From a virus: DNA of 64,000 bases. Below, one piece after another: positions 84-64,000 of this stretch (the first letter of the stretch is position 1; the number at the start of each line of letters is the position of its first letter). The stretch lies in the IMG/VR virus record IMGVR_UViG_3300019132_000038. The stretch is one strand, 5' to 3'. The translations under genes were made by a program, and so were the position numbers. The notes under the pieces were generated by a model that did no database searches, was not told where the DNA came from, and saw only the letters and a program-made list of their open reading frames with translations.

Positions 84-110
84 TTTGATTTCCCCCTTAA
101 TGTAATTACT

Positions 111-134
111 TTTCACCAAATCCGCCGGAGGCGG
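111..134 (-). promoter_or_regulatory. GGA-triloop hairpin motif copy 1 (candidate phage RNAP promoter)
   Basis: TTTCACCAAAT-CCGCC-GGA-GGCGG on + strand, upstream of the minus-strand gene starting at 83. Confidence 0.55.
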
Positions 135-162
135 CTCCACTAACCAAAAGTTAGACGATCAT

Positions 163-264
163 TTACATAAAATAAAAAATCAGAAAGGTTAATATACCGG
201 AAAAACAAATCATTCCTATAATTTCTTCCCCTGAATACAATAAACCAGAATCTATATCTTTCAT
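163..264 (-). CDS. small hydrophobic membrane peptide (33 aa)
   Basis: GAGGTG RBS; MKDIDSGLLYSGEEIIGMICFSGILTFLIFYFM. Confidence 0.5.
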   Translation of the reverse strand: MKDIDSGLLYSGEEIIGMICFSGILTFLIFYFM

Positions 265-302
265 AATCACACCTCAAATTATCAAATTATCCTCTTATCA
301 AA

Positions 303-353
303 TTATCGAGAAAACCCTAATTATCGTTGAAATAACAGGGGTTTTCTCGATAA
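303..353 (-). terminator. long inverted repeat, probable terminator
   Basis: TTATCGAGAAAACCC (303-317) / GGGTTTTCTCGATAA (339-353), directly after the stop of 357..665. Confidence 0.5.
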
Positions 354-356
354 TAA

Positions 357-665
357 TTAGACTAATAATAATTCTAACTGTTTAAGTTCCTCATTAATTA
401 AACGGTGAATAAGTCGTAAAGTTGTTACCCTTTCTTCATCACCATCCAAGTTGTTAATATCTATATCAGAATAATAAAATGAGAATTCTTTAATATAACC
501 GATTATGCGCTGAGACTTTTCGGTTTGAGCCCAGTTATTTAATACCGGATAATCAATTTTCTTTAGTAGGTATAAATACTGAACAATATGAACAACCTCA
601 AAATGATCGCCAGACTCCAATTCATCTGGCAAATGCCTCATAGCTTCGCAAACCGCTAATTTCAT
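357..665 (-). CDS. hypothetical protein
   Basis: 102-aa ORF with AGGAGG RBS, co-oriented with neighbours. Confidence 0.7.
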   Translation of the reverse strand: MKLAVCEAMRHLPDELESGDHFEVVHIVQYLYLLKKIDYPVLNNWAQTEKSQRIIGYIKEFSFYYSDIDINNLDGDEERVTTLRLIHRLINEELKQLELLLV

Positions 666-679
666 ATAAACTCCTCCTT

Positions 680-901
680 CTACACAGCATGTTGTTGCAG
701 CTTCGCCATAATATCTGCTTCTAATGATTCACGATCATGAATGTAAGTAGTAAAAGCCTGTTGCAAATCTTTAGCAGATGGCTTCTGATGTAAAACAATC
801 TCTCTCATTGTGCCATTGTTATATTTAACACGAGCGATAATTGCAAAAGTATTATCTGGTTGACGCTGAATATAAAAACGAACTACTTTCATAGAAATCA
901 C
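680..901 (-). CDS. hypothetical protein
   Basis: 73-aa ORF, AGGAG RBS, overlaps the stop of the upstream gene. Confidence 0.7.
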   Translation of the reverse strand: MISMKVVRFYIQRQPDNTFAIIARVKYNNGTMREIVLHQKPSAKDLQQAFTTYIHDRESLEADIMAKLQQHAV

Positions 902-1230
902 TCCTTTGGTTTAGCAATTGGAATTAAGAGAATTTGTCCCTCACGGATTTGAGAAGAATCTTCAATACGATTGACTTTTTTAGTCAGTGTCACAAAATGA
1001 CGGGTATCCCATCCCCAAGGGACAAATGTATTCATATCTTGTACAACAGTAAAAAGAGTATCGCCCTTTTGCATGCGATACTCTATATACTCAATCTGAT
1101 AATCATTCATTTGTTCTATATGGAATACCAACATAAATACCATTAAAATCGATAAGAAAAAGAGACTGATGTTTTTCCATTTCAGTCTCTTACAAAATGA
1201 TTTTTTTCTACGTATAGTGCTTAGATTCAT
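898..1230 (-). CDS. TM-LysM protein, YneA-like
   Basis: Basic N-terminus, one TM helix, then LysM pattern (MQKGDTL...IREGQILLIP); same architecture as Bacillus YneA. Confidence 0.7.
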   Translation of the reverse strand: MNLSTIRRKKSFCKRLKWKNISLFFLSILMVFMLVFHIEQMNDYQIEYIEYRMQKGDTLFTVVQDMNTFVPWGWDTRHFVTLTKKVNRIEDSSQIREGQILLIPIAKPKE

Positions 1231-1242
1231 GTTATCCTTCCT

Positions 1243-1266
1243 TTCCACGAAATTTGCCGGAGGCTA
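1243..1266 (-). promoter_or_regulatory. GGA-triloop hairpin motif copy 2
   Basis: TTCCACGAAATTT-GCC-GGA-GGC between genes, ~20 nt upstream of ATG 1230. Confidence 0.45.
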
Positions 1267-1779
1267 TTACGTTAATGCAACTTCATACAAATCTTTTTTA
1301 CCTTTCAAGAGATATTCTGCTGAAGAATGAATAGCCACTAAACGATGTGGCTGATCACATGTAGTTTGGTTTTGCAGATGCACTTTATAAGACAAAACAC
1401 GTTCACTGTCCGTAAGGACAGCATAAATTTGTTGCCATAAATCTACATGTTGTGGAGGCTCTCCTTTCGTAGTGAGCCATCCTTGACGAACCCAGTTGTA
1501 CATATGTTTATTTAGACCGGTACTGACTTGTACAACAGATGTATAAATATGTACAAACACAGGTTTTTCTTTCTTCAATTGCAAGAGTCCATGTAAAATA
1601 GCCTGAAGCGTCATACGAGTTGGTGTCGTTCCTTTCGCATAACCACCAATGGTCTTTGTATAATGCTGACCTTGAATGCAGCAATGAAGATGAGAACACC
1701 AGCCACCGTTTCCTTCTTGGTCTGTTGTGCCGGCTACCCAAAGATTCACTTTTAATTTATCAAACTGAGCTTTACTCAT
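1267..1779 (-). CDS. RNase HI-like protein, catalytic acids absent
   Basis: Aligns by eye to RNase HI (GNGGW, TTPTRMTL, NWVRQGWLT, HVDLWQQI); probable start ATG 1779 with GAAGGAG RBS. Confidence 0.75.
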   Translation of the reverse strand: MSKAQFDKLKVNLWVAGTTDQEGNGGWCSHLHCCIQGQHYTKTIGGYAKGTTPTRMTLQAILHGLLQLKKEKPVFVHIYTSVVQVSTGLNKHMYNWVRQGWLTTKGEPPQHVDLWQQIYAVLTDSERVLSYKVHLQNQTTCDQPHRLVAIHSSAEYLLKGKKDLYEVALT

Positions 1780-1846
1780 AGATTTCACTCCTTCATTTGA
1801 ATAACAAAAAAAGCCCACACCAGAAGATGTGGACTTTATTTATGAT

Positions 1847-2122
1847 TCAAATTTTTTCATCAATGAATTTATGAATATTGCGCAAACCGTTTTGACCATA
1901 AAGAATACGAATCTTCTTATAATCTACATGACGTGGAGCGGTTTTCTTGTTATGTATTGGAATCCCACGACGATGACAATTCTTTTCAATCACATTAAGA
2001 AGGATTTTTGTGCGCTCGTATTGACCTTGATTGTAAGTACATTGAGCTTGATGAAGAATATGAAGTAAATCATCTGGCAAGAAAGATACTCGCAAACGAA
2101 ATAAACGATCAGATAAATTCAT
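1847..2122 (-). CDS. hypothetical protein
   Basis: 91-aa ORF with AGGAGGAG RBS. Confidence 0.7.
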   Translation of the reverse strand: MNLSDRLFRLRVSFLPDDLLHILHQAQCTYNQGQYERTKILLNVIEKNCHRRGIPIHNKKTAPRHVDYKKIRILYGQNGLRNIHKFIDEKI

Positions 2123-2147
2123 TTCTTACTCTCCTCCTTAGACAAAA

Positions 2148-2180
2148 TAAAAAAAGCCATCCTAAAAAGGACGGCTTTCT
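2148..2180 (-). terminator. intrinsic terminator
   Basis: AAAGCCATCCT/AGGACGGCTTT stem followed by a U-tract on the minus strand. Confidence 0.6.
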
Positions 2181-2186
2181 TAATGC

Positions 2187-2732
2187 CTATATATAAAACG
2201 TATGAATATAACGATTAAAACGTTTGGCGTACTCAATACAGTTGGCAGTTCCGCCAGGTGTTCCATCCCAAAATGCGATCACACCTTGAACAGAATCTAC
2301 CATATATTCATTTCGAATTTGCAGTTTGTAATTGCTATGTACGCCAACAGGTGTATGGATATCTCGCATGTACAATGGTGTCTTATCCACATACGTCACC
2401 AAGTCTGCTAACTCTAACATACGAGAATACCAATACAAAATTTCTGGATTTCTCCATATTTTTGGTTGCTCTTTATACGGTACAGCAACAATATTCTTAA
2501 TATGAGGATAACGTTTCTTGAGTTGCTGTACCGTAAAAAAAGCAATTTGATCAAAGCCAATCGCTCCGCCAGACATAAATTTTGTTGCTCCCTGTTGAAT
2601 TTTTTCTTCTAAAATAGGAAGCAACAAATTTCTCACAGTATACACTCCTTCATTCTTCCAGGGATCATTCCAATCAAACCCTGGAATTTTATTAGGGCGA
2701 TGACCTGTGAAACACCAAGCATCTACAGACAT
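2187..2732 (-). CDS. DUF1273/YspA SLOG-family protein
   Basis: CFTGHRP, SGGAIGFDQ, RNEYMVD, WDGTPGGT motifs; start ATG 2732 with AGGAGG RBS. Confidence 0.85.
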   Translation of the reverse strand: MSVDAWCFTGHRPNKIPGFDWNDPWKNEGVYTVRNLLLPILEEKIQQGATKFMSGGAIGFDQIAFFTVQQLKKRYPHIKNIVAVPYKEQPKIWRNPEILYWYSRMLELADLVTYVDKTPLYMRDIHTPVGVHSNYKLQIRNEYMVDSVQGVIAFWDGTPGGTANCIEYAKRFNRYIHTFYI

Positions 2733-2756
2733 GCAAAATCCTCCTTGAGAGAATAT

Positions 2757-2780
2757 TTTCACCGAACCCGCCGGAGGCGG
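2757..2780 (-). promoter_or_regulatory. GGA-triloop hairpin motif copy 3
   Basis: TTTCACCGAAC-CCGCC-GGA-GGCGG, ~30 nt upstream of ATG 2732. Confidence 0.55.
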
Positions 2781-2789
2781 TCCCACTGG

Positions 2790-2945
2790 CTAAAAGCTAG
2801 TGGGAATTTCAATAAATGATTGAAGATAATTATCACAGCCGGATTCGCAATACTTGCAATTTGGACATTCCACTGTAAAATCATCATGTAAATCTACATT
2901 TATGTGGAATTCCGTTTCGCATTCAGGACATCTAAGATACAACAT
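2790..2945 (-). CDS. small zinc-ribbon protein
   Basis: CPEC...CPNC pairs; probable ATG at 2945. Confidence 0.65.
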   Translation of the reverse strand: MLYLRCPECETEFHINVDLHDDFTVECPNCKYCESGCDNYLQSFIEIPTSF

Positions 2946-2988
2946 ATTATTCAAAATCCTCCATATACTCAAGAATATAAACCACTCC

Positions 2989-3219
2989 TTATTTCATCCT
3001 CAATAAAGCTGTATAAGCATCACTAAAACGCTTATATTTTTCTTTACTATAATCATCTTCATGGATAGCATACCAAGTTTGACTTTCTTGGTGATAACAC
3101 AATCTGCCAATATAGTAATACCCACAACGAGAACGAAGAACCAATAACTCACTTATTTGACCATCAAGTAAACGATTCTCCATTGTTGGAACAGAAGGAA
3201 TTAAACCCATACTATCCAC
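2989..3219 (-). CDS. hypothetical protein
   Basis: 76-aa ORF; downstream gene has AGGAG RBS at the junction. Confidence 0.65.
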   Translation of the reverse strand: MDSMGLIPSVPTMENRLLDGQISELLVLRSRCGYYYIGRLCYHQESQTWYAIHEDDYSKEKYKRFSDAYTALLRMK

Positions 3220-3251
3220 CCTTTCTAATATAATAAATTACAAAAAAATTT

Positions 3252-3275
3252 TTTCACCAAATTCGCCGGAGGCGA
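3252..3275 (-). promoter_or_regulatory. GGA-triloop hairpin motif copy 4
   Basis: TTTCACCAAAT-TCGCC-GGA-GGCGA, upstream of 2989..3219. Confidence 0.55.
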
Positions 3276-3753
3276 TAGCCTTTTTTTACTTTCTAAATAA
3301 AGAACACCTTGTTCGATAAAAAATAAAAAAATACGAACACTTTGTGACAATTTTGTGAACTTTTTTGAACAAGGTAGAATTTCCCCAAGTTTTGGCGGTA
3401 TATAAAGAAAGTGAACACCTTTCTTAGAAAGCAAGGGGTTGCTGTCAAAGTTATCTGACAACTGTCACAATTTTGGAATTCTATACCAGAAATTAAAATA
3501 AGGGTATTCCAAAATAGCACACTTTCAGATACATAGTACACATTCTTTTGGTGGCTTTGCGAAGCACACCAACAAGTACACCAACCGATTTCTAGAAAGG
3601 CATACCCAAAACCAAGCTAATGGGGCTGGAAGACAGCGGGGACGTATGCCCTTTTCGAAAGGACCACCCTAACGGCAAATTTTTAGGAAACATTGGGGGA
3701 TTGCTACGCATATCATCATGCATATCATATTCTCCGCCGCCCGCCGATAGGGG

Positions 3754-3777
3754 TTCCAACAAATCTGCCGGAGGCGA
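3754..3777 (-). promoter_or_regulatory. GGA-triloop hairpin motif copy 5
   Basis: TTCCAACAAATCT-GCC-GGA-GGCGA. Confidence 0.4.
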
Positions 3778-4162
3778 TTGGTCGGTGCTATGTAAACCAC
3801 GATTAGTCGGTGCTACGTAAAAGAACCAAAACTCGCCCTCCATCTCTGTGGCTCGATAGAGCCAAGAGTGATCTTGCCGAAGGCTAACAATAAAACAAGA
3901 TAAGATGAAGCGTACAAAGGTGTTATCCATCCTCATTCTCATTCCCTCCAGAAGTCAGTATTGTCAGGGTGTAACCTTATACTTCAAGCCTATAGATAGG
4001 ACAAGTCACTATCCACTAGCTCCATCCACATAAGACACCCGACACCAAAGATGGTACGAGGGAAGAGCATTCAGATGGTCATGATGAACGCTTCCATAGG
4101 GTGATTGTGCTCCACTGACACGCTCACCCCAAAAAGCGCATCAGTTTCATCGCACAAAAACA

Positions 4163-4363
4163 TTAGTCAGTAATAAATGCGACAGAAACTGCATCAGCAT
4201 TCTGAATGTCCTCCCAAGATATATTTGGTCGGACTTCAGAACACAACACAATTTCAACTACAAATACTGACATGGCTCCTCGATCCGACCAGTCCAAAAT
4301 CAAATGAACTGGCCAAATCAAAGAAGCAAATGCCAGTTCACAAATTATTTTCATGATGAACAC
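4163..4363 (-). CDS. hypothetical protein
   Basis: 66-aa ORF; GAGGTG RBS-like sequence upstream of ATG at 4354. Confidence 0.45.
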   Translation of the reverse strand: MFIMKIICELAFASLIWPVHLILDWSDRGAMSVFVVEIVLCSEVRPNISWEDIQNADAVSVAFITD

Positions 4364-4732
4364 CTCAACTGATTAATTTGTGAACCGTTATTTAACTAGA
4401 GTGGCCGTCCTCTAGTGGAGTGGTTCTTCTCCATTCCTATTCGCCTATCCCCAAATAGGAAATCCCCCTGTTAGGGCAGGTCGCATACTATGCACAGCTT
4501 GTTTTTCTCGCTATCGTGCATATTTAGCCAGGGATATTTTCAGCCTGTTAAATAGCTACTAGGACACTCTTATGCCATTCCCTAAGAACCTTGCCTAAGC
4601 AATGAATACAGGGAATAGAGAGGAATCCGCTCGCAAAAATAAAACACATCACCTCCTTTCTGATGTGAACCACACCAATCAAAACAAGAAACACCTCTTG
4701 CACTCATTGCTAGGGTTCAAGCCATTCTTAAT

Positions 4733-4770
4733 AAAAAAAAGAAAAAAGAGGAGGGCAAAACGCCCTCCTA
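4733..4770 (-). terminator. intrinsic terminator after RNAP gene
   Basis: AGGAGGGC/GCCCTCCT stem plus long U-tract on the minus strand. Confidence 0.75.
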
Positions 4771-4771: not shown

Positions 4772-7700
4772 TCATGAATAGCGAGTAACTGATTCCAAAT
4801 AGAACGTCAATGACTTCTTATTGACTTGAAAATCCTTTACTTTTGCAACAAATCTAGTTGCACCAGTAAAGAAAGTAACATACTCTGGATAAATCGAAGC
4901 TACACGTTGCTTCTTGACATACACTTCATGACGAAGATTGCCAAGTTCATCAGCTTGAACCATAACTGCAATATGATTAGCCCAATTTTGAATCATATTA
5001 GCAACCATCTCTGGCGTATAACCCGGAGTAAAGTTACCAATGTTCACTTTCGTAACCTCAAGTTGATCAAAACGAGTTACTTGAGGTTCTTTTAATTTTA
5101 AGTGTTCTGTTCCAGACACCTTACGTAAAGCTGCAACAAATTGATGTTTAGCTACAACCCAAGGGAAACTTAACCCACGAGCAGGCTCATCCACCGTTGC
5201 GCCACGCTTCGAAGCTGAAACAGAATAAGTCATCTGATAAGCAACCAAGCCAATATAAGCTGGATCAAATTGTTCTGAAAGAGCCATAAACTCTGCTTGA
5301 CACTTTTCAGTAATAAAGTTGAGCGAATCATCTAGATCACGCTTCAACTGATTAATATATTGTTCTTTGGCATAATCACTTGCAAAAGAAATAAACTCAA
5401 GTTGAGACATTTCGGTATCAAACTTACGATACGCATTCGAAATAGCCGTATTGTACATAGATTTAATCATGCGTACATTACTTAAAACGGCCATTTGTTC
5501 CACATGAGACTGTGGCACTTCAACCACAGTGGAAATCGCACTGAGAAGATTATTCTCTGCATATTCACTTCTCAACTTCTTAATATCAGCAATAAATTCT
5601 TGTTCTTCCCATTTCAACATATATTCATGAACACGAGAAAGAACAGAATCATTCTGAATACCATTTGACTTCCCTTTTAAATGAGCGAACCAAGATGGAC
5701 TTGCCCAAACATAACGACGTAATTTCTTATTGTACGTTGCAACTTCTGCTGGTGGATTTTCAATGAAAGAAAGTTCTTCTTTCAATGCTTCTTCATATGC
5801 ACCACCATGTTTTGCACGGTCAATTTCCCAAGACTGAACCCATGCAAGTAAATCAATAAGTTCTTGGAGTTCATTCACTCTCTTAATAATCGCTTTTGCT
5901 GCTGACATACTGCCAGCTTCATAATGAGAACGACCCTTATACCACAAAGCACGAACCGCATCAGCAAGTTTCGTAGCATAATCCGTTAACTCACCAATAC
6001 GGTTTGGCTTTAACGTTTCTGCTACATACTCTAAAGATATTTCATACATCTTTAACTGTAACTCACGAGTATATTGACTCTTTGTAAAAGTAAATTTATA
6101 CTTAGACATATCCACTGTACCCTTAAATGGGCAACCATTGTCGAAGAGAATCTGCCCATTCTCTTCCCAATAGTGGATATCTAAGAAAGCAGGAGCAGAT
6201 TTGCATGCTTCTTCAACCGCTGTGACCAATTCTGGTTGAGTCATGCACAGTGATGTATCACCATCACAATCTGCTCCACCTTGAGAAATAGTATTAAAGT
6301 CATGGCACGACATAATAATCATGCCATCAAAAGCATCTTTCTTCATATAGCGTGAATAAGCACGTGCTTCAAGAACACGAGATTGCCCCATAGTCATCTG
6401 CGGATTACGAGCAACAGCTAGTTTGCCAACATACACCACATGACCATCTTTCTCTAACATAAAGCACGTACCAGGTTTAATTCCTTTATTCGGATTCACA
6501 AAAAGTTTTCCATTTTTACGAATCTCTTGATCCGTGCCACGCAACTTATACGCATCTAAAATCGCATACGGATCCATAATGATAAAACGATAATTCGCTT
6601 CAACCGGAATTAAACCCGATTTCCACTCTTTAATCAACTCTTGTAATAAAGAAAGAGCCTTTTCTTTCAAGAAAACATCTTGGTAAGAGTTCGGCGCATA
6701 ATGTAAATAAAACGACAACAAAGAAACAAGAGTAGAATCTAACAATTCATCTTGTTCCTCTTCTGAATACTCTTCAAGTTGCAACAAACGATCATGCCCT
6801 AAATACTCCTTCATCAATTCTACATCATGAAGTAACAATTTTGCACGATCCAAATGAGGTTTTAAAAGTTTAATCATAGTATCGGCACTCAATTTCATAC
6901 CATGTATAAATTGATACGGTAAACTCACATATCTCTTTTTAAAGCGCATTGGTGCTCCAAAAAGAGCCACACGGAACTGCAATTGAATATCTTCAATTAC
7001 ATCTTCCAACGTATCTGTAGAAGCTTTGAATGAAGACATTGGAATCACAATATCTTCTTCAAAATACTTCTCTAAATCTGGAATATACACAGCATTGCCT
7101 TTTACAAAACCGTTAAACAAACGAACAACACCATTCTGAAAATGACGGCCAAACTCCGCTTCCGCTAAAGTCTTAATACGATTATTGAAATACATTTGAC
7201 CATCACCGGCTACTTGTTCAATAGGATGATCAGCCGCATCAAACACACGACTTTTCTTTGTATCTTTGCCAAAAGCTTTAAACTTACCTTGTGATACTTC
7301 TGAATAAACATCTTCGACAATACGAAGAGATACATTTCCGCCGAGAATAGAAATATCACCATTCTCGTGACGTACTACTTCTTTTCCAAAACGAATAAAG
7401 TTCGACTTAACACTATTCGAAAGCGTTAAGCCAAAACGTTTCATAGCTTTGACATAATCTAATTCATAAACAATCTCACCATTTTTATCTTGGCCCTTCA
7501 CCTTCGCAAAGGCTAAAGGATTCATACCAAGAATATTCAATACATCCACAGGATGAATAATATGCTCTGCCACACCAACTACTTGGACTTGACGTTCTTG
7601 AGAAGGAGAACGCAAAGCATAACGAACCATACGTTCTACACCTTCATAATCAATATAACTCATTCCTAATCGAATAATATTCATCGCCTTTGTAATATCC

Positions 7701-8251
7701 TCTTCTTTTAACGGTTTTAAATCAATGAAGAAAACGTGAGGCAATACATATGCATACACCTCACGTTCTATAACTTCACCATCAACTATCTTTCTAACTG
7801 TCACCATACGTGGACCATCAAAAATAAATGGAGACAACATCTCTGCTGCATAAGAACCAGAAATCTCTTTATATCCTGATTTCTTATCTTCACCAACGAA
7901 GAAAGAATCAGAATAATTGCGAGTAGAAATATAACGACCATCAACAAATTCGATCGTATCTAAGTCTGCTTGTGCTACAATAACACGAATATTCTTGATA
8001 CGACGAAGTTTCTTAGGAATTGGATGAGATTCCAAGAACTTCTTAAATACATGAGCTTGTTGTGGTGCAACACCTGCCAACTCTACAGGATTCTCTAATA
8101 CCTCCACTACATTTGCACCACTCGCAACCGCTTCCACAACTTTAGAAAAGTTTTTCGTACCAATTGCCGTTAAAGGCGAAAAAGAAGCCAAGCGTTCAAC
8201 CACTTGGCTCACAGACTGAATAGGATTTAATACATTTTTCACATTGTTCAT
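4772..8251 (-). CDS. single-subunit two-barrel RNA polymerase, YonO / cellular RdRP-like
   Basis: 1159 aa; motifs RLFNGFVKG, VARNPQM and catalytic QGGADCDGD (DxDGD) in the order found in the QDE-1/RdRP-YonO family. Confidence 0.85.
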   Translation of the reverse strand: MNNVKNVLNPIQSVSQVVERLASFSPLTAIGTKNFSKVVEAVASGANVVEVLENPVELAGVAPQQAHVFKKFLESHPIPKKLRRIKNIRVIVAQADLDTIEFVDGRYISTRNYSDSFFVGEDKKSGYKEISGSYAAEMLSPFIFDGPRMVTVRKIVDGEVIEREVYAYVLPHVFFIDLKPLKEEDITKAMNIIRLGMSYIDYEGVERMVRYALRSPSQERQVQVVGVAEHIIHPVDVLNILGMNPLAFAKVKGQDKNGEIVYELDYVKAMKRFGLTLSNSVKSNFIRFGKEVVRHENGDISILGGNVSLRIVEDVYSEVSQGKFKAFGKDTKKSRVFDAADHPIEQVAGDGQMYFNNRIKTLAEAEFGRHFQNGVVRLFNGFVKGNAVYIPDLEKYFEEDIVIPMSSFKASTDTLEDVIEDIQLQFRVALFGAPMRFKKRYVSLPYQFIHGMKLSADTMIKLLKPHLDRAKLLLHDVELMKEYLGHDRLLQLEEYSEEEQDELLDSTLVSLLSFYLHYAPNSYQDVFLKEKALSLLQELIKEWKSGLIPVEANYRFIIMDPYAILDAYKLRGTDQEIRKNGKLFVNPNKGIKPGTCFMLEKDGHVVYVGKLAVARNPQMTMGQSRVLEARAYSRYMKKDAFDGMIIMSCHDFNTISQGGADCDGDTSLCMTQPELVTAVEEACKSAPAFLDIHYWEENGQILFDNGCPFKGTVDMSKYKFTFTKSQYTRELQLKMYEISLEYVAETLKPNRIGELTDYATKLADAVRALWYKGRSHYEAGSMSAAKAIIKRVNELQELIDLLAWVQSWEIDRAKHGGAYEEALKEELSFIENPPAEVATYNKKLRRYVWASPSWFAHLKGKSNGIQNDSVLSRVHEYMLKWEEQEFIADIKKLRSEYAENNLLSAISTVVEVPQSHVEQMAVLSNVRMIKSMYNTAISNAYRKFDTEMSQLEFISFASDYAKEQYINQLKRDLDDSLNFITEKCQAEFMALSEQFDPAYIGLVAYQMTYSVSASKRGATVDEPARGLSFPWVVAKHQFVAALRKVSGTEHLKLKEPQVTRFDQLEVTKVNIGNFTPGYTPEMVANMIQNWANHIAVMVQADELGNLRHEVYVKKQRVASIYPEYVTFFTGATRFVAKVKDFQVNKKSLTFYLESVTRYS

Positions 8252-8393
8252 AATGATTTCCTCCTGTTTTTATTTACTTATTAAAGAATCCTAAACCCAC
8301 CCAACCACCCGCTTGCTGTCATAAGGCGCAAGTCAACCGGACATAAAAAATAAAAACTAAAAACATAAAAAATAAATAATAAAAAATAAAAGA

Positions 8394-8918
8394 TTAAAAG
8401 ATAAAAAACTGTTGAGAGACATAATTCGCTACATTAAACAATTCATAGCGAACAGGATACTTCGTTATGCATCTTCCCTTCTTCCAAGCTTCTAATTCTA
8501 AACGCATTCTCACTTCCTTTGTCATAGATTCGGCCGAAGAATAAGAACGAATCCCCTCTGTTAATGCATGACCAACCTCATGAGACATAACAACATCCAC
8601 AAACTGTAGAACCGTCATGTGATTTAAAGAGGCAGTTAGTTTTGTAGTTTCTAAGTCAGCCAACCAATAAATAATATGGTGGGCAGGAGCATAAACAGCT
8701 ACAGCACCACTTGGCACTAAAACAGTACGTGGTGAGCCATATATAAACTTCACATCACTACCACTACGTCTAATTACATCAAAACATAAAGATTTAATAT
8801 CATCCTCTGTTACCTCCTTTACATAATTTAAGCAAGTATGAACACCAATAGATAACATATTCGCCACAAAAACACCCTTAAACATTTTTCTGATCATATA
8901 ACCCCTCCTCATACACAC
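8394..8918 (-). CDS. zincin metallopeptidase-like protein (ImmA/IrrE-like)
   Basis: SHEVGH (HExxH) with downstream LELEAW. Confidence 0.55.
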   Translation of the reverse strand: MCMRRGYMIRKMFKGVFVANMLSIGVHTCLNYVKEVTEDDIKSLCFDVIRRSGSDVKFIYGSPRTVLVPSGAVAVYAPAHHIIYWLADLETTKLTASLNHMTVLQFVDVVMSHEVGHALTEGIRSYSSAESMTKEVRMRLELEAWKKGRCITKYPVRYELFNVANYVSQQFFIF

Positions 8919-9177: not shown

Positions 9178-9659
9178 ATTACCTTTCCCCTTTCCCTATG
9201 TTTATAAATATAAGAAAGCAAAGTGAGGGAGTGGGAACGTGCTAACTCCCCCTCTAGGCATCCACATCAGCGCAAAGTAAACTGAGCAAAATTACCCCAA
9301 GTTTACAGAAAAATAAAAAGGCTTCTTTGGCACAAGGTACACCGCCAAAGCATTCCTTTTCTTTAGTGAGAAGCTGAGAAAGTAATCAATATCATAGTTT
9401 GATTATCCTTAACAGCTACAACAGAATAGAGTTTACAACCTTTTTTATCGTGTCCTCTAAATACGCTATAAATATAACCTTTCATTTCGCAGAACCCTAA
9501 GTATTCTCCTTGTTTTTTAATAGTCTCAAATGTCATATCTAAATACCTCCTAAATTATTCGTTTTTTATTCGATAAGTGTTTGATTCCCCTCTAGGGGGG
9601 AGAAGTATATATTCTAAATAAACACGGACGTTTTCATTAAAATAAAAAGGAAATGTTCG

Positions 9660-10080
9660 TCAATAGACATACCTCCTTTGTTTTTCCTGTGTATATCCCC
9701 CACAGGCAGGGTTGGCTTTGATTGAAGCATTCCACCTGCTTCTGCGTGTTGTGCATCACGCCTACCGGTACGTGGGGTGTCCACTAACCACATCCATGGC
9801 AATACCGGTAATTAAGATGATCTAGGTTTTCCTACGACCTTCGACCTTTATACACTTACCTGTGTATCGGCACTCCTAACGGTGCCTTTGCCTAACGGTA
9901 GGGTGAGCTAGGCTGCAACCCATTTGTGCCACGCCCACAAATGGCCCTGTCGGGTTGGGAAGTTGCCTTATCACCCTCCTGCACCTCTTCCTGCGGTGCA
10001 GTCGGGCTTGTCACTCCACTTAGAGACCCCTTTGCATACCCCCTAAGCTTCGTGACAAGGGCTATCACAGCCTAGCTCAC
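9660..10080 (-). ncRNA. candidate structured non-coding RNA
   Basis: GC-rich; 13-bp inverted repeat GTGAGCTAGGCTG (9903-9915) / CAGCCTAGCTCAC (10068-10080) enclosing and flanked by several hairpins. Confidence 0.35.
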
Positions 10081-10715: not shown

Positions 10716-10982
10716 AATCCATTCCTCCTTTAGATTTTTAAAAATGTGTTGGTGGTGATGGTTGCTTGCGCCTCCGCTAATGCGGCAACCCCACGCCATT
10801 CAGCAGCCACGCCCTGCTCGGAGTGGGTGGGGCGACGAACGCCATCAGAGGCGCACAACCAACAACCACGTATCCCTCGCAATTTTTTTTTAAAATTTTT
10901 CCCTATATAGGCGTTTCCCTAAGTTTGTGGGCCTGCCTCAAAATTTTTTTATCCAATTTTCTGCCTATTTAGTGTTTCCCTA

Positions 10983-11012
10983 TGTTATAATAGTTTCATG
11001 TAATGCATTACA
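10983..11012 (+). promoter_or_regulatory. extended -10 promoter with palindromic operator
   Basis: TGTTATAAT (10983-10991) followed by the perfect palindrome TGTAATGCATTACA (10999-11012). Confidence 0.65.
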
Positions 11013-58768: not shown

Positions 58769-58783
58769 AAGGGAGTGGATTAC

Positions 58784-61700
58784 ATGAATGAACCATGGAA
58801 CCAAACACCAGAAGATATCCGAGTGAATATTGTATTACCTAAATCAAAAGATTTAAAAGTCGTTGCCGTTTCCGATCCGGTCTATTATCAAGACCGGACG
58901 GATCCCGAATATGAAAAACGAATTACTCGTCATATTGATTTTCTGAATCGGCAATCGGCAATTTTAGAACGGGATAAAAACTCGTTGGCTCTTGAAATGC
59001 AAGAACTCATGCGTAAAAAAGAGACGATAATTTATGATGGACAACGAGTATATCGCTTGTTTCATTCCTTAAATCAACGACACAATCAACAAACTTTAGA
59101 GCTATTTGAAGAGTTTTATCGTAGCCTAAAAAATAATCAAAATCATTATATTTTTGATATCGAAACATTTGGAGATGTTCATGATCGACAAAAACCATAC
59201 AGCATTTCCGAGATTTCAATTAATGAATTTGACCGACAAGGCAATTTGGTTCGCAAAGGCTATAACACCGTTTTGCGACAAGATCAAAAAACAGTAGATT
59301 ATTTGCAGCAACTTATTGATGATATTCGAAAAGACAAATATGCTTACAATCGTTTAGAAGATTGGGAAAAACGGAGTCTAGTGGATTTAATGCGTTATGC
59401 AAGCTATATGAGTGAGTATGATGAACATGCGTTTTCTCATAACCTTAAAACTCAAGAAATCCAACATCATTCCATTATTAAATCGGTGTTTGACCACCAA
59501 GACCAAGTGCATCATGGAAAGGTATTACGTAATATTGACCAATATCTTTTGTATATGCAATCAGGACTTGATTATCTAAAAAAACATGGTACACCAGTGC
59601 AAACAGCATTAAAACAGATCGAAAAATTATTTCAAGAGAATGCGGATCGTTTTTTCCTTACTTATAACGGGTTAGTCTTTGACTGGCCAGTGTTAAAAGC
59701 TTTTGCAGAAAAACATGGGGTCACTTTGTCATCTATTAAACATCTTGACTACTTAAATGCCATTCGAACCGTATTTTCGGACTCTGATGTATTAAAACGA
59801 AGAATCAATCCAGATTTTCAGCGGAGTGCATACAGTAAAGATAAACTAGCTGCTATGCGTCAAGCATTAAATTTAGAAACACAAGATGAAGCGCACAACG
59901 CACAAATTGATACACATGACACAGCAAAAGTGATAGCTGCTACCTATGAACATCTTCATCAAGAAATCCAAAATTCGAAATTTCCGATTCGAGAAGGATT
60001 CAACTATCATCCTACGTATTTAACATGGAATGATGAGCCTCTTCGTCACGGACAAAAACTATTTGCCATTGGAGGAGCAATGGCCGTACAAGATGGAGAC
60101 GAATCTTTCCGAGTGACCTTAGATGAAAATGGAAAATGGGTGCCTGTCACTAATGATTTCAATAAAACCGTCATTAATAGTAAAACCTTCTATGAATTTG
60201 CTGGTATGCAGAAATTAGAAGAAGGACAGCTGGCATTTCGATTTTTTGATCCAGACCGAAATGAATATGCCTATATTGTTCGTAGCGGAGAACATGCATT
60301 TCAGGAACTGCAAGACTTTGTACAAAGTCGTTTTTACAATTGGGATGGATTAGACCCTCAATATCAACGAGATATCTTGCACGCTGCTGAAGCAGACCGA
60401 GCCCGTCGTCGTTATCAGCGTTTCTTTAGTATGGATGGAGCCGGCAAAGGATTGGCAATTATAGATGGGGAAATCGTCGAAAAAGGGACAGCAGGTTTTT
60501 CTGGCTTAAAACGAATGATTGCCAATGCCGAAATCATGAAAACTCATTTAGAAAGTAAAGGAGCCCAGTATCGTGCCAAAGTAGAAGAACTCATAGCACA
60601 AGGAATGAGTCGAAATCAAGCCAAAAGAGAAGCACGAAAAATACGGGCACATCAATTGCCAAATCACCTAGATTTTGAAAGTTTATGGGATGAAAGTCGG
60701 CAGAAATACGTTATTAATGAAGCAGAAAGAAAGCAATTCTTTAAAATGTATAAGCGTTTAATCGATGAACTTCCATATCTAAAAGAGGTAGTAGAAACCA
60801 TTGATCAAGAATTTGCAGAAGAAATTCAACAAGCAGCTGCTATCAAAGATAACCGAAAACGACGCAGGGCTCTTATGGAGATTAATCAAAAACGAGATCA
60901 AGCCCTTATGAATTACTATCGATACATGACAGATGCCGTGGGAGAACCTGAACAAGAAAGGACATTAAAAGAATTTGAAAATCGGCGTTTGGCTTTTTAT
61001 GACCCGGAAGTAGACGATTATCGCACCTTGGATTTTACCACTGTCAAAAGTGCAAGAGATAGTTTATATCAATATGCTCGACGTGGCACAAAAGAAAGCC
61101 GTAATCAGCAAAAAGTGATGAAAGAGCGGTTAGATTTCCTTTTTCGTAATTTACAAACTCAGCATATCATTACTCCAGGTCAATACTCTTATTACTCCGA
61201 TGTATTATGGAACACCGATTCGGTATGGCATGCAGCAGGAGAGATTGCTATCAATATGAGACAACGAAATAACGGAAAATATGAAACTACCTTAACAGAG
61301 CCATCCATGATTCAAAATCAAAATATTCAGCAGCTTACCAAAGAACAAAATCGACAGTTTATTCAAAGAGCTATCGAGGACACTCGTAATGCTCAATTGA
61401 TTATCAATATGGACTCAGCAACAGGTAAGAAACTGATATTAGGTGAAGAAATAAGAAAAACATTAGAGATTTTGGATCAACAGCGTTTCTCACGACTAGA
61501 ACCAAAAAACTATGAAGCATTAGAAGAATTGATTGCAAGTATTCGTAAAACTGATCGTACGAAACAAATTGCATTAGTAATGGATACTCATTCTAATGAT
61601 GGATTAATGAAAGCCTATGTCTATAACGGAAAAGATAGTATAACAGTTCGCAATCAATTAGCTCGAGGAACAACTCCTACACAAGCGTTAGAAATCGTCA

Positions 61701-64000
61701 TGCCTTTGATTAATCAGGCCGGCACACATAAAGTAGGAGGCTTGGTATTAAATGCACATAATATAGCTGTTCGAGAAGGAAAAAATATCGAGTTAATTTC
61801 AAGTGCCCAACATATTGCACGAGGATATGCTGATAGAATGGGATCTATTATGAAGGTATTCAATGAAGGAGATATAGAATGGGCCAATACACTCGCACGA
61901 CGTACTCTTCGTAATCAAATTGAAAGCATGTCAGGAATCCAGAGAAATATGGAATTCGGAGAAAACGACACATATGTATGGGCGCAAAATCAGTCCGACA
62001 TGTTAAAACAAGCACACGTCAAGCTAGGTAATGCTATGGTAGAAGATTTGTTTTACAACGGCTTTGAAGGTGTGCGACTAACAGAAAAAGATTTCTACGA
62101 TCCGGATGATGTGTTTATAGATGACGGACATGGAAACCGAATCTTGCGCAAGGGTGTAACTTTAGAAGATGTAAAAATGGAAACCAGCCACAAGATGCTG
62201 ATGCTCATGCCTAAATGGGCAGAGGAACGGTTAAAGATTCCTTTATTTACATCTTCTGTGAAAGCTGAGCACGTATCCAAAGCGATTTTATCAATGGAGG
62301 ACATTCGCCAACTGATTCCTTATGGTACATTTTACAATCACGGCCGTGATAACGCTGTACAATATATGAATGCTTATCTAATTAACTCTCAAACAGAAGA
62401 ACGTTTAAGAAATATTAAAGGAGTCAGTCGGGATAGTTTATTGAAAACTCCTCGCCAACTAGAATATGAGTCTATTCAGCCTAACAAAGTCAGCATGAAT
62501 ATGAGAATTGCTTATATGACGCAAGATGAACTACGTAAACGTGTAGAACAAATGATAAAAGATTCAAGAGGGCAACAACTTCTTTCCGAATTAGGATTTT
62601 TAGATGAGACAGGAAAACTTCAGTATGAAAAACTACCACGACTGTATGAGCAGCAGGGCATTATTGCTAAAGATTTAATGGATGCGTTAGAAGTCAATAA
62701 TGAAAAGCGATATGACAAAGGAAAACGATTTGAATTAGAAAAAGGGTTGCAAATAGGTAGCACTATTCAACCAGGTCAGTTATTAGGATACCGAATCCAT
62801 GATAATGGATACCGAGAAGCTATACGTTATGAAGGCACCAAAGTAGCCCAGCTTATTGATGGTGTGGAAGAAGGACGAGATTTAATTGTACGTTGGCAAA
62901 CCCAACCATTTAAATTTATGCTTGACGGCGAAAAAATGACCGATTCCCCCGTAGATCGTCGATTTATTGAATATCTTACTGGTCGAAATGACATTGTAGG
63001 GATTATTAACCCAGATGTGGCGAAACACCACGACTTTGGAATGTTAATGTCGGGGGAAGCTAGATTGCTAGCTGAAGAAATTAAAAAACTAAGCCCATCC
63101 AAACAAAAAACCGCTAGAAAAATTATTGAAAATGGTGGTATTGGGCTCAAGTGGAATCAAGAAATGGGCGGGTTCATTGATCATAGTTTTGATTTGCAAA
63201 TTGCTCGGGAACAATTTGATAAAGTATTTGAGCAACTCAACAAAGCCAAAATTCGTATTTCTCCAATAACTCCAACAGGATTGCGTATGGGTATTTTAGA
63301 AGGCCGTATGTCCAAAGTAGCCAATTATAGTAAAGTGATCGACCACAACGGAAGGCAAGTGATTGGCTATGAAGAAGGATATAATGCTGAAACTGGCGAA
63401 TACGAAGTTCGTAAAGTATATGCAGATGGCAGAGATGGAGTACAATGGGGACACCGAGAGATGGGGGTACTAAAGAGCTATGGGTTAGAGAAAACCTATC
63501 AACATGTTCATCAAATTATGTTGGAACAAGCTCAGCAAACTCATCGTCTCCAAGAAACTAGAGCCGTTGCTGAATCATTGCGATATCTGACACATGAGGA
63601 TCGTATTCAAACAGAGGCATTGAACATAGAAGACTTTGACTCTCTTCCAGAAATGTATCGTAGTGAGAATACGTACAAAGGAACGATTTTTGATCGTGAA
63701 AAAGTAAAAAGTTTAGTAAGCCAGTATAAAAATCATAATGCCATGAATGAGCATGGTTTCTGGCTAGAATTGCCTTCAGTAAAACGTCCTGATGGTAAGC
63801 TCGATAAAGTTACGATCCGCATGGACGAGACAGGGACATTAAAAGAAATTGATAAAATCTTTATTCCATTTACGAAACTGGAAGGGGCACATGGCGATAT
63901 CCATTTGCGGGATTTGCAAAAACAAATTGCTCGTATTTATGAAAAAGCGGAAGAAGTGCAACGAGCAACCAGTCTTCAAGATGCACGAATGGCCCATCAA
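58784..64000 (+). CDS. giant DEDDh exonuclease / RNA polymerase beta-beta'-like fusion protein, 5' part
   Basis: GGGAG RBS and ATG 58784; no stop in the segments I translated, and its absence from the track fits a frame with no stop codon in the window; FDIET / YNGLVFD / AHNAQID exonuclease motifs, then ordered beta-like motifs incl. GVQWGHREMGVLKSYG. Confidence 0.75.
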   Translation, partial: MNEPWNQTPEDIRVNIVLPKSKDLKVVAVSDPVYYQDRTDPEYEKRITRHIDFLNRQSAILERDKNSLALEMQELMRKKETIIYDGQRVYRLFHSLNQRHNQQTLELFEEFYRSLKNNQNHYIFDIETFGDVHDRQKPYSISEISINEFDRQGNLVRKGYNTVLRQDQKTVDYLQQLIDDIRKDKYAYNRLEDWEKRSLVDLMRYASYMSEYDEHAFSHNLKTQEIQHHSIIKSVFDHQDQVHHGKVLRNIDQYLLYMQSGLDYLKKHGTPVQTALKQIEKLFQENADRFFLTYNGLVFDWPVLKAFAEKHGVTLSSIKHLDYLNAIRTVFSDSDVLKRRINPDFQRSAYSKDKLAAMRQALNLETQDEAHNAQIDTHDTAKVIAATYEHLHQEIQNSKFPIREGFNYHPTYLTWNDEPLRHGQKLFAIGGAMAVQDGDESFRVTLDENGKWVPVTNDFNKTVINSKTFYEFAGMQKLEEGQLAFRFFDPDRNEYAYIVRSGEHAFQELQDFVQSRFYNWDGLDPQYQRDILHAAEADRARRRYQRFFSMDGAGKGLAIIDGEIVEKGTAGFSGLKRMIANAEIMKTHLESKGAQYRAKVEELIAQGMSRNQAKREARKIRAHQLPNHLDFESLWDESRQKYVINEAERKQFFKMYKRLIDELPYLKEVVETIDQEFAEEIQQAAAIKDNRKRRRALMEINQKRDQALMNYYRYMTDAVGEPEQERTLKEFENRRLAFYDPEVDDYRTLDFTTVKSARDSLYQYARRGTKESRNQQKVMKERLDFLFRNLQTQHIITPGQYSYYSDVLWNTDSVWHAAGEIAINMRQRNNGKYETTLTEPSMIQNQNIQQLTKEQNRQFIQRAIEDTRNAQLIINMDSATGKKLILGEEIRKTLEILDQQRFSRLEPKNYEALEELIASIRKTDRTKQIALVMDTHSNDGLMKAYVYNGKDSITVRNQLARGTTPTQALEIVMPLINQAGTHKVGGLVLNAHNIAVREGKNIELISSAQHIARGYADRMGSIMKVFNEGDIEWANTLARRTLRNQIESMSGIQRNMEFGENDTYVWAQNQSDMLKQAHVKLGNAMVEDLFYNGFEGVRLTEKDFYDPDDVFIDDGHGNRILRKGVTLEDVKMETSHKMLMLMPKWAEERLKIPLFTSSVKAEHVSKAILSMEDIRQLIPYGTFYNHGRDNAVQYMNAYLINSQTEERLRNIKGVSRDSLLKTPRQLEYESIQPNKVSMNMRIAYMTQDELRKRVEQMIKDSRGQQLLSELGFLDETGKLQYEKLPRLYEQQGIIAKDLMDALEVNNEKRYDKGKRFELEKGLQIGSTIQPGQLLGYRIHDNGYREAIRYEGTKVAQLIDGVEEGRDLIVRWQTQPFKFMLDGEKMTDSPVDRRFIEYLTGRNDIVGIINPDVAKHHDFGMLMSGEARLLAEEIKKLSPSKQKTARKIIENGGIGLKWNQEMGGFIDHSFDLQIAREQFDKVFEQLNKAKIRISPITPTGLRMGILEGRMSKVANYSKVIDHNGRQVIGYEEGYNAETGEYEVRKVYADGRDGVQWGHREMGVLKSYGLEKTYQHVHQIMLEQAQQTHRLQETRAVAESLRYLTHEDRIQTEALNIEDFDSLPEMYRSENTYKGTIFDREKVKSLVSQYKNHNAMNEHGFWLELPSVKRPDGKLDKVTIRMDETGTLKEIDKIFIPFTKLEGAHGDIHLRDLQKQIARIYEKAEEVQRATSLQDARMAHQ

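What the first reader, a model, noticed from the sequence alone, without database searches (positions are those of the whole stretch)
111..3777. Five C-GGA-G triloop hairpins with N4 virion-RNAP promoter geometry in the leftward gene arm
Seen: the motif TT(T/C)CA(C/A)(C/G)(A/G)AA-N2-3-GCC-GGA-GGC occurs at 111-134, 1243-1266, 2757-2780, 3252-3275 and 3754-3777. All copies share one orientation, and the triloop lies on the template (+) strand of the leftward genes. Four copies sit 20-50 nt upstream of a start codon. Stem changes co-vary (CCGCC/GGCGG vs TCGCC/GGCGA). In 4 of 5 copies a C lies 11 nt from the loop centre, after an A-rich spacer (117, 2763, 3258, 3760). Established: coliphage N4 vRNAP promoters are template-strand hairpins with a C-GDA-G loop near -11, an A-rich spacer and initiation opposite C. 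Inference: these are hairpin promoters for a virion-delivered RNAP. Both RNAPs here are two-barrel enzymes unrelated to the T7-like N4 enzyme, so this would be convergent.
Basis: partly seen in the sequence, partly recalled or inferred. Interest (0 to 1): 0.85.

Follow-up and report, generated by a model that had tools for sequence, protein, structure and literature searches.

The report
Candidate hairpin promoters in jumbo phage
A 216-kb Bacillus-type jumbo phage carries 15 copies of a small strand-specific DNA hairpin plus start box in front of its leftward (replication) genes; the element copies the hairpin promoters of coliphage N4 almost base for base, although this phage has only unrelated "two-barrel" RNA polymerases, so it may be the first promoter type found for such enzymes.

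Summary
GCCGGAGGC occurs 5 times in the window (0.06 expected). The generalised element, TTTCACCAAA-N-[5-bp stem]-GGA-[stem], occurs 15 times in the 215,870-bp genome. All copies lie on the + strand, all in the leftward arm, each 25-60 nt upstream of an SD and start codon. The stem covaries (15 double-sided changes; 0 of 500 shuffles reach this). Conservation covers 24 nt only, from the hairpin to GGTGAAAA. The geometry matches the N4 P2 promoter: C-GGA-G loop, 5-bp stem, A-rich 4-nt spacer, CC start.

Related phage-plasmids of Bacillus keep the design, often at orthologous positions, with lineage-specific stems and loops (ATCC, TACC/TGCC, TAAC on the sense strand) and the same GGTGA box. The copies are strand-exclusive in each.

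The genome has a YonO/RdRP-like RNAP (1159 aa) and a 2304-aa exonuclease-fused beta/beta'-like RNAP in the tail module. No T7-like enzyme was detected.

Best reading (0.55): these are template-strand hairpin promoters for a phage two-barrel RNAP. Which enzyme reads them is open. No transcript data exist. The main rival is an RNA-level intercistronic signal.

The parts
110..134 (+). Hairpin-plus-start-box element, copy 1. Template strand: TTTCACC-AAAT-CCGCC-GGA-GGCGG. Loop centre 128; candidate start opposite C117/C116 on the minus strand.
1242..1266 (+). Element copy 2, with a weak 3-bp stem (GCC-GGA-GGC). Loop centre 1260. It lies directly after the RNase H-like gene, the position where L005, L006, L027 and L030 carry their own hairpin variants.
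2756..2780 (+). Element copy 3 (CCGCC-GGA-GGCGG). Loop centre 2774. A strong 9-bp hairpin abuts it on the upstream side in the sense direction. It precedes a YpsA/SLOG-family gene.
3251..3275 (+). Element copy 4 (TCGCC-GGA-GGCGA). Loop centre 3269. A terminator-like hairpin with a T-run lies about 25 nt upstream in the sense direction.
3753..3777 (+). Element copy 5 (imperfect stem CTGCC-GGA-GGCGA). Loop centre 3771. It is the first copy downstream of the YonO-like RNAP gene, inside a roughly 1.5-kb stretch with no convincing ORF.
4772..8251 (-). YonO/RdRP-like single-chain two-barrel RNA polymerase, 1159 aa, with the motif GADCDGD. Its own canonical terminator lies at 4749-4769.
58775..64000 (+). 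5' part of a 2304-aa gene that runs to window position 65689. It encodes a DEDD-exonuclease-like N-terminus fused to a single-chain beta/beta'-like two-barrel RNAP (RYP...DSDGD at residue 1870). It lies in the tail module, next to a 2147-aa lysozyme-bearing tape-measure-like protein. It is the candidate virion RNAP.

Best explanation
The 24-nt elements are promoters of the N4 type. Under negative supercoiling, or on transiently single-stranded DNA, the template (+) strand extrudes a 5-bp hairpin capped by a C-GGA-G loop. A phage-encoded RNA polymerase binds this hairpin and uses the 4-nt A-rich spacer as a ruler. It then starts RNA about 11 nt from the loop centre, opposite the conserved CC, so transcripts begin GGUGAAA.

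I lean slightly (about 60:35) towards the conserved 2304-aa tail-module RNAP over the hypervariable YonO-like enzyme.

Shown: the motif, its strand and position bias, the stem covariation, the compact conserved block, conservation of the design in relatives, and the nature of the two polymerases.

Inferred: hairpin extrusion, transcription start, and the identity of the reading enzyme.
For: (1) All 15 copies lie on the template strand of the leftward arm and none elsewhere. CCTCCGG is the most enriched upstream 7-mer of leftward genes: 14 observed against 0.8 expected.

(2) Stem complementarity is kept while the sequence varies: 93% paired, 15 double-sided changes, 0 of 500 shuffles reach this. 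This excludes a dimeric dsDNA operator.

(3) Conservation runs only from the hairpin to 18 nt downstream. Nothing is conserved upstream of the hairpin. The footprint is that of a phage-RNAP promoter, about -16 to +8, and not that of a 5' stabiliser behind another promoter.

(4) The element matches N4 P2 base for base in CGGAG, in stem length, in the A-rich spacer and in the CC start. The C:G closing pair and the 5'G and 3'A of the loop are the bases N4 needs for hairpin extrusion (PMC4496689).

(5) Leader length to the SD varies from 5 to 40 nt. This argues against a translational operator.

(6) Canonical terminators in the same arm look quite different: 9-14-bp stems followed by T-runs. Several elements sit directly behind such hairpins, in a terminator-then-promoter order.

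(7) Relatives keep the design with other stems and loops plus a GGTGA box. The copies are always in the sense orientation and often at orthologous positions:
- L005/L006: GCCCT-TRCC-AGGGC
- L026/L027/L028: GCCCC-ATCC-GGGGC
- L030: CGCC-TCC-GGCG
- L007/L014/L016: 6-bp stem with a TAAC-type loop
. Complete Bacillus plasmids show 4:0 and 0:5 strand counts.

(8) Hairpin promoters with 3-4-nt loops and a G start are mapped experimentally in LUZ7 (PMC9163698).

(9) Two-barrel phage RNAPs of this kind prefer single-stranded templates, and their promoters are unknown (gp66; YonO).

(10) On which enzyme reads the element: the YonO-like protein is only 28-36% identical between phages that share nearly the same element, whereas the 2304-aa RNAP stays 57-70% identical.
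Against: - No 5'-end or any RNA data exist for this phage; it comes from a biocrust metagenome.
- A hairpin is symmetric, so the same covariation fits an RNA hairpin in intercistronic transcripts.
- The G.T versus A.C asymmetry test is uninformative: 2 against 2 among 170 pairs.
- Nearest-neighbour energies do not distinguish the two strands.
- N4's -8G is C here.
- The commonest loop in the Bacillus relatives, GGAT on the template strand, lacks the 3' A.
- Sites are spread over 77 kb and precede replication genes, unlike N4's three left-end promoters.
- The Alicyclobacillus relative has both RNAPs but no detectable equivalent motif.
- Virion packaging of the 2304-aa protein is inferred from gene position only.
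Confidence: 0.55

Rival explanations
1. RNA-level signal. The hairpin plus AUUUGGUGAAA acts in polycistronic leftward transcripts. It could be a site for a phage or host endoribonuclease, cutting in the AU-rich stretch and leaving a 3' protective hairpin upstream. Or it could be a binding site for a phage RNA-binding regulator.
For: - Every copy is in the sense orientation, between co-directional genes.
- The RNA hairpin is stable, with a centroid of -8.3 kcal/mol.
- Covariation fits RNA equally well.
- The wobble test does not exclude it.
- The sense loops UAAC and UGAC of the distant lineage resemble UNAC tetraloops (my own knowledge).
- A comparable earlier case in a crAss-like phage was judged more likely an RNA leader (earlier finding e1-5324464).
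Against: - The invariant core is the CGGAG DNA mini-hairpin of N4, read on the template strand. A UCC triloop has no known special RNA stability.
- Several copies lie directly behind terminator-type hairpins, so little read-through RNA would contain them.
- The distance to the SD varies.
- A 5-bp stem is too short for RNase III.
- The conserved G-rich box is just where an initiating GG would lie.
Confidence: 0.25
2. Polymerase-specific terminator or pause signal for a phage two-barrel RNAP, placed at gene ends. Such enzymes lack the flap domain, so they might need a dedicated signal.
For: - Copies lie 7-60 nt after the stop codon of the upstream gene.
- A short U stretch (AUUU) follows the hairpin.
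Against: - The element is not flagged as an intrinsic terminator on the sense strand, while classical terminators coexist in the same arm.
- The conserved GGTGAAAA box downstream of the hairpin is unexplained.
- Copy 5 follows no gene.
- In several cases it would stand in tandem with another terminator hairpin.
Confidence: 0.08
3. DNA-transaction signal other than a promoter: a single-strand initiation (primase) site, or a recombination or nicking site formed by the extruded hairpin.
For: - The hairpin is strand-specific and has a DNA-type GNA loop.
- A DnaG-like primase and an SSB are encoded in the same arm.
Against: - Every copy is tied to a gene start 25-60 nt away and shares that gene's orientation.
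- If replication diverges from the arm junction, the + strand would be the leading-strand template there, which is the wrong strand for priming signals (inference).
- There are no flanking repeats or associated recombinase genes.
Confidence: 0.05

Closest known systems
Coliphage N4 early promoters P1-P3, read by the virion RNAP gp50 (PMC4496689, PMC13492108)
   Same: - Template-strand hairpin with a 5-bp stem.
- C-GGA-G loop centred 11 nt from a C start.
- A-rich 4-nt spacer.
- CC at +1 and +2, giving a GG start.
- Conserved block of about -17 to just past +1.
- Variable stem bases kept complementary.
   Different: - N4's reader is a giant T7-like single-subunit RNAP; here only two-barrel enzymes are present.
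- Position -8 is C, not G.
- There are 15 sites over 77 kb in front of replication genes, rather than 3 at the first-injected end.
- The host is Gram-positive and the virus is a 216-kb myovirus-type phage-plasmid.
Pseudomonas phage LUZ7 early and middle hairpin promoters (ONT-cappable-seq, PMC9163698)
   Same: - Hairpins with stems of at least 4-6 bp and 3-4-nt loops lie 13-15 nt upstream of a G start.
- A second, middle class uses GC-rich hairpins. This resembles the 4-nt-loop and 6-bp-stem variants in the relatives found here.
   Different: - LUZ7's polymerases are T7-like (vRNAP and RNAPII, with Drc).
- Its starts are mapped experimentally; here they are only predicted.
SPbeta YonO and crAss-like phage phi14:2 gp66 (two-barrel single-chain phage RNAPs; PMC5467207, bioRxiv 2020.03.07.982082)
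   Same: - Same enzyme superfamily as the 1159-aa protein (PF05183).
- gp66 transcribes single-stranded but not double-stranded DNA.
- In SPbeta the YonO promoter lies just downstream of the polymerase gene, in a long non-coding stretch, as the first element does here.
   Different: - No promoter motif is defined for either enzyme; gp66 early transcripts showed no common motif.
- YonO transcribes late structural genes, whereas the elements here precede replication genes.
Thermus phage P23-45 tape-measure-fused virion RNAP plus non-virion RNAP (PMC10770324)
   Same: - Two two-barrel RNAPs in one phage.
- One of them lies in the tail module beside or fused to the tape measure.
- Each enzyme has its own promoter class.
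   Different: [quoted passage not shown]
- There the vRNAP transcribes the nvRNAP gene. Here the YonO-like gene has no hairpin element upstream.
Bacillus phage AR9 non-virion RNAP promoters (template-strand recognition; PMC7598289, own knowledge)
   Same: A phage two-barrel RNAP that reads the template strand of its promoter.
   Different: - The AR9 enzyme is multisubunit.
- It recognises a short uracil-containing linear motif, not a hairpin.

Membership tests
N4-type hairpin promoter (Schitoviridae vRNAP) | Hairpin on the template strand with a 5-7-bp stem and a 3-nt loop, stem complementarity selected | tested here: met
   13 of 15 copies have a 4-5-bp perfect stem and a GGA loop. 93% of cells are paired and 0 of 500 shuffles reach this.
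N4-type hairpin promoter (Schitoviridae vRNAP) | C:G loop-closing pair with a 5'G and 3'A in the loop (sheared G:A) and G at the loop centre (-11) | tested here: met
   CGGAG is invariant in 15 of 15 copies, identical to N4 P2 (PMC4496689). Among relatives, the GGAA, GGTA and GGCA loops fit; GGAT lacks the 3' A.
N4-type hairpin promoter (Schitoviridae vRNAP) | A-tract ruler and start opposite C, 11 nt from the loop centre | tested here: inconclusive
   The spacer is AAAT or AAAC, with AA invariant. C lies at the predicted +1 in 10 of 15 copies and at +2 in 13 of 15. The actual start site is not mapped.
N4-type hairpin promoter (Schitoviridae vRNAP) | -8G contact base | tested here: not met
   Position -8 is an invariant C.
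N4-type hairpin promoter (Schitoviridae vRNAP) | Read by a giant T7-like virion RNAP (gp50 homologue) | tested here: not met
   PF00940 gives no hit in six frames of the genome. The large proteins tested (the 2304-, 1854- and 1159-aa ORFs against the PDB, which holds N4 mini-vRNAP; all giant ORFs against PHROGs) give no vRNAP-type hit. The giant tail-module protein folds as a beta/beta'-type RNAP.
N4-type hairpin promoter (Schitoviridae vRNAP) | Activity depends on negative supercoiling and SSB | not testable with these tools
   Needs in vitro or in vivo assays. The phage does encode its own SSB, behind one of the elements.
Two-barrel RNA polymerase (the 2304-aa protein) | Two double-psi beta-barrels with a DxDGD metal site; fold like RNAP beta and beta' | tested here: met
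   RYP...DSDGD at residue 1870 is invariant in 22 homologues. The AF2 model has pLDDT 82.8. Foldseek matches chains B and A of Pol I/III, archaeal, vaccinia and bacterial RNAP at E of about 1e-7 and probability 1.00.
YonO/RdRP-like RNAP (the 1159-aa protein) | Match to PF05183 above the gathering score; GADxDGD motif | tested here: met
   34.8 bits against a 23.8-bit cut-off. D661, D663, G664 and D665 are invariant. It is the only hit in the genome.
Intrinsic (rho-independent) terminator | GC-rich stem of at least 5 bp followed by a run of U on the transcript | tested here: not met
   The terminator scan flags none of the five elements on the sense (-) strand, but does find classical terminators at 4749-4769, 2150-2181 and 1810-1837.

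The most novel reading that the evidence does not exclude
A family of roughly 200-260-kb Bacillus and Paenibacillus phage-plasmids uses N4-style template-strand DNA-hairpin promoters that are read by a single-chain two-barrel RNA polymerase. If so, hairpin-promoter recognition arose independently in two unrelated polymerase superfamilies. It would also supply the first defined promoter for YonO/gp66/QDE-1-type or fused virion two-barrel RNAPs, in hosts that can be cultured.
Probability: 0.45. Interest if true: 0.88.

Novelty: new variant of a known kind. Interest (0 to 1): 0.74.

Why it matters
How single-chain two-barrel phage polymerases find their genes is an open question. These enzymes include YonO, crAss gp66 and their relatives, which are kin of the eukaryotic RNAi polymerases. 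YonO's promoter is undefined, and gp66 early transcripts share no motif although the enzyme transcribes only single-stranded DNA.

A compact, covarying hairpin element shared by a whole family that includes cultured Bacillus plasmids (pSCDB14 and others) gives a concrete template. It can be tested with oligonucleotides, hairpin mutants and cappable-seq.

If confirmed, it would show convergent use of extruded DNA hairpins as promoters by T7-like and two-barrel enzymes. It would also provide orthogonal promoter-polymerase pairs for Gram-positive hosts.

Tried and rejected
- **Wobble asymmetry (G.T on the template strand versus on the RNA sense strand).** Only 4 informative pairs out of 170, split 2:2; within this genome the split is 3:1. 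Inconclusive.
- **DNA and RNA nearest-neighbour folding of both strands.** The energies are the same, because the parameters carry no GNA-loop bonus.
- **Exact-pattern scan of IMG/VR with the motif.** Three isolated, apparently chance hits.
- **RNA-seq.** Only four DNA runs from one biocrust study hold the sequence, and none is RNA.
- **Rfam, at gathering and E-value thresholds.** Nothing at the elements or in the non-coding stretches.
- **Alicyclobacillus shizuokensis 198-kb relative.** It has both RNAPs, but I found no enriched hairpin or box in the homologous arm.
- **SPbeta P_yonO.** I could not convert the published start (B. subtilis 168 position 2225998) into phage coordinates. The primer-extension primers bracket L020 10330-10573, which holds a repeated TCATTTATGA(A/G)GGT box but no clear adjacent hairpin. 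Kept as a lead only.
- **Dimeric-operator reading of the inverted repeat.** Rejected, because the arms vary while staying complementary.
- **A 5' stabiliser behind an upstream promoter.** Rejected, because nothing upstream of the hairpin is conserved.

Full report
**Observation.** The window is positions 9417-73416 of a complete 215,870-bp virus record with direct terminal repeats and 37% G+C. It was assembled from a biocrust metagenome. GCCGGAGGC occurs five times in the window, all on the + strand, at 124, 1256, 2770, 3265 and 3767. Shuffles give 0.06 copies.

A position matrix and a hairpin scan of the whole genome find a sixth exact copy and nine variants with CCC-GGA-GGG stems. That makes 15 elements of the form TTTCACCAAA-N2-3-[5-bp stem]-GGA-[stem]. 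Hairpins with a C-GGA-G loop and a stem of at least 4 bp number 14 on the + strand and none on the - strand.

**Position.** The genome has a rightward arm (about 20.4-158.8 kb; structural and other genes) and a leftward arm (158.9 kb, through the ends, to 20.2 kb). All 15 elements lie in the leftward arm, on its template strand, 25-60 nt upstream of an SD and start codon. CCTCCGG is the most enriched 7-mer upstream of leftward genes: 14 observed against 0.8 expected.

The genes directly behind the elements include a sliding clamp, a DnaG-type primase, an AAA ATPase, an SSB, a PIF1/RecD-type helicase and a YpsA/SLOG protein, along with small unknown proteins. Eight of the 15 cluster in the 9 kb downstream of the YonO-like polymerase gene.

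**Structure.** On the 15-site alignment the five stem pairs are 93% paired, against 74% in column shuffles. There are 15 double-sided changes, and 0 of 500 shuffles reach the observed score. Slid partners drop to 43-69%. The two pairs next to the loop are invariant C:G; the outer three vary (GC/CG/UA/AU). The arms change while staying complementary, so a dimeric dsDNA operator is excluded and a single-stranded fold (DNA or RNA) is selected.

Information content is confined to 24 nt, from the outer stem pair to 18 nt downstream of the loop centre in the sense direction. Nothing upstream of the hairpin is conserved.

**Comparison with N4.** The published P2 template oligonucleotide reads 5'-...CAGCC-AAAA-GAAGC-GGA-GCTTC (PMC13492108). 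The element here reads 5'-TCACC-AAAT-CCGCC-GGA-GGCGG. The two share:
- the CGGAG core (-9 to -13);
- a 5-bp stem;
- a 4-nt A-rich spacer;
- CC at +1 and +2.

According to the N4 review (PMC4496689), the C:G closing pair and the 5'G and 3'A of the loop allow extrusion at physiological superhelicity through a sheared G:A pair. The same review says -11G is stacked on W129, and the A-tract acts as a ruler without base contacts. The one clear difference in the element is C instead of G at -8. In LUZ7, mapped early and middle hairpin promoters have 3-4-nt loops 13-15 nt upstream of a G start (PMC9163698).

**Relatives.** The design recurs in relatives with other sequences:

| Locus | Source | Sense-strand element |
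|---|---|---|
| L005/L006 | Logan contigs; YonO-like 63% identical | GCCCT-TACC/TGCC-AGGGC + ATTTT-GGTGAAA, stems covarying (GCCAC/GTGGC, GCACT/AGTGC) |
| L026 | Logan contig | GCCCC-ATCC-GGGGC + ATTTA-GGTGAA, plus one TCC-loop copy |
| L027 | Bacillus sp. | CCCCC-ATCC-GGGGG |
| L028 | B. licheniformis | GCCCC-ATCC-GGGGC |
| L030 | Logan contig | CGCC-TCC-GGCG + AATGTA-GGTGAAA |
| L007/L014/L016 | distant metagenomic relatives | 6-bp stem, TAAC/TGAC/TATC loop + ATTCAT-GGTGAAAA |

In every locus the copies are in the sense orientation. The element sits at the same place (after the RNase H-like gene, before a small membrane-protein gene) in this phage and in L005, L006, L027 and L030, each with its own stem and loop. 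In two complete Bacillus plasmids the strand counts are 4:0 and 0:5, with 0 for the reversed control pattern. The Alicyclobacillus relative has both polymerases, but I found no equivalent motif.

**The polymerases.** The 1159-aa leftward gene matches PF05183 and keeps GADCDGD. The 2304-aa gene in the tail module has a DEDD-exonuclease-like N-terminus and an RYP...DSDGD segment. An AlphaFold2 model of residues 950-2060, built on 22 homologues, has pLDDT 82.8 and pTM 0.75. Its best Foldseek matches are the second-largest and largest subunits of Pol I/III, archaeal, vaccinia, ASFV and bacterial RNAPs, at E of about 1e-7 and probability 1.00.

No T7-like enzyme was found. PF00940 gives nothing in six frames, and the tested large proteins give no N4 vRNAP-type hit in the PDB or in PHROGs. 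Packaging of the large one is inferred only from its position next to a 2147-aa lysozyme-bearing tape-measure-like protein.

**Which enzyme?** The YonO-like protein is only 28-36% identical between phages that share nearly the same element (this phage against L030, L027 and L028). Their RNase H-like proteins are 72-83% identical. The 2304-aa protein stays 57-70% identical across the group.

Two points argue the other way. As in SPbeta, the first element lies just downstream of the YonO-like gene, after a terminator and a long non-coding stretch. And the elements precede replication genes, which in other phages are usually middle genes.

**Rivals.** An RNA-level signal (a processing or regulator site in intercistronic RNA) cannot be excluded. 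The hairpin is symmetric, the wobble test gave 2:2, and the energies do not differ between strands. Five points speak against it:
- the invariant core is the DNA mini-hairpin of N4, read on the template strand;
- several copies stand directly behind terminator-type hairpins;
- the distance to the SD varies;
- the conserved G-rich box lies where initiation would occur;
- nothing upstream of the hairpin is conserved.

A terminator reading fails the scan that finds the classical terminators of the same arm. A priming or recombination signal does not explain the tie to gene starts.

**Literature.** I found no paper describing hairpin promoters for two-barrel phage RNAPs or describing this phage-plasmid family's transcription. 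The gp66 study states that its early transcripts have no common motif and that gp66 transcribes only single-stranded DNA. The YonO study leaves its promoter open. [quoted passage not shown]

**Verdict.** I put 0.55 on a hairpin promoter for a phage two-barrel RNAP and 0.25 on an RNA-level signal, with the remainder on the minor rivals. It is a new variant of a known kind (N4-type hairpin promoters) in an unrelated polymerase context, and it can be tested directly in cultured Bacillus carriers.

Noticed in passing
window 10978-11011 (genome 20394-20427), and about 14 further sites upstream of rightward genes, e.g. genome 59454, 97287, 123354, 140902, 149129: A second upstream motif class marks the rightward arm. 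It is an extended -10-like TGnTATAAT followed 2-15 nt later by the palindrome GTAATGCATTAC. GTAATGC is found in 14 upstream regions against 1.7 expected. It looks like sigma-A-type promoters with an operator or a 5' hairpin. A few copies also occur in the leftward arm and in the Alicyclobacillus relative.
   Followed up: partly
window 3300-4770 (minus sense): About 1.5 kb with no convincing ORF lies between the terminator of the YonO-like gene and the gene cluster. It contains hairpin element 5 and repeated AAAATTGTGACA/TGTCA words. L005 and L006 have a similar gap of about 1 kb. SPbeta has a 1.7-kb non-coding gap (with a reported ncRNA) downstream of yonO-yonN, which holds the YonO start site.
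   Followed up: partly
window 9560-10080 (minus sense): A GC-rich, apparently highly structured non-coding stretch of about 500 nt in an AT-rich genome. No Rfam match at E<=1.
   Followed up: partly
window 10760-10870 (minus sense); L005 about 7620-7720; L006 about 7550-7650; L007 about 8360-8450: A conserved GC-rich leader (GTTCGxxGCCCCACCC...) lies upstream of the first leftward gene at the arm junction. It is shared by relatives whose polymerases are only about 31% identical.
   Followed up: no
genome 158943-159050 (outside the window, at the other arm junction): GGTGAAAA is repeated four times on the + strand at spacings of 30-40 nt. These are iteron-like repeats at the boundary between the rightward and leftward arms.
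   Followed up: no
window 4772-8251 versus L026-L030: The YonO-like polymerase is hypervariable. It is 28-36% identical between phage-plasmids whose neighbouring RNase H-like proteins are 72-83% identical, and it comes in length classes of 1159-1180 aa and 1250-1284 aa. This suggests repeated replacement or very fast evolution.
   Followed up: partly
window 51536-58768: Three ORFs (1400, 300 and 620 aa) occupy the place where relatives (L023, L024) have a single ORF of about 2000 aa just upstream of the 2300-aa RNAP gene. The gene may be split or interrupted here.
   Followed up: no
window 20843-21127 and 13321-13392: A group I intron (Rfam RF00028, 86.9 bits) and one tRNA gene in the rightward arm.
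   Followed up: no
L020 (SPbeta NC_001884) 10430-10640, minus strand: The box TCATTTATGA(A/G)GGT occurs twice. One copy lies inside the interval bracketed by the published P_yonO primer-extension primers. It faintly resembles the TTCAT..(G/A)TGA box of the distant lineage (L007/L014/L016).
   Followed up: partly
plasmid records NZ_CP014843.1, NZ_CP021670.1, NZ_CP035189.1, NZ_AP025341.1, NZ_CP114067.1, NZ_CP097261.1, NZ_CP118109.1: The phage belongs to a family deposited as 200-260-kb 'plasmids' of B. licheniformis, B. paralicheniformis, B. halotolerans, B. thuringiensis and Paenibacillus. With the ParM-like gene near the arm junction, these look like jumbo phage-plasmids. L028 and L029 also carry a PemK-type toxin gene in the hairpin region.
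   Followed up: partly
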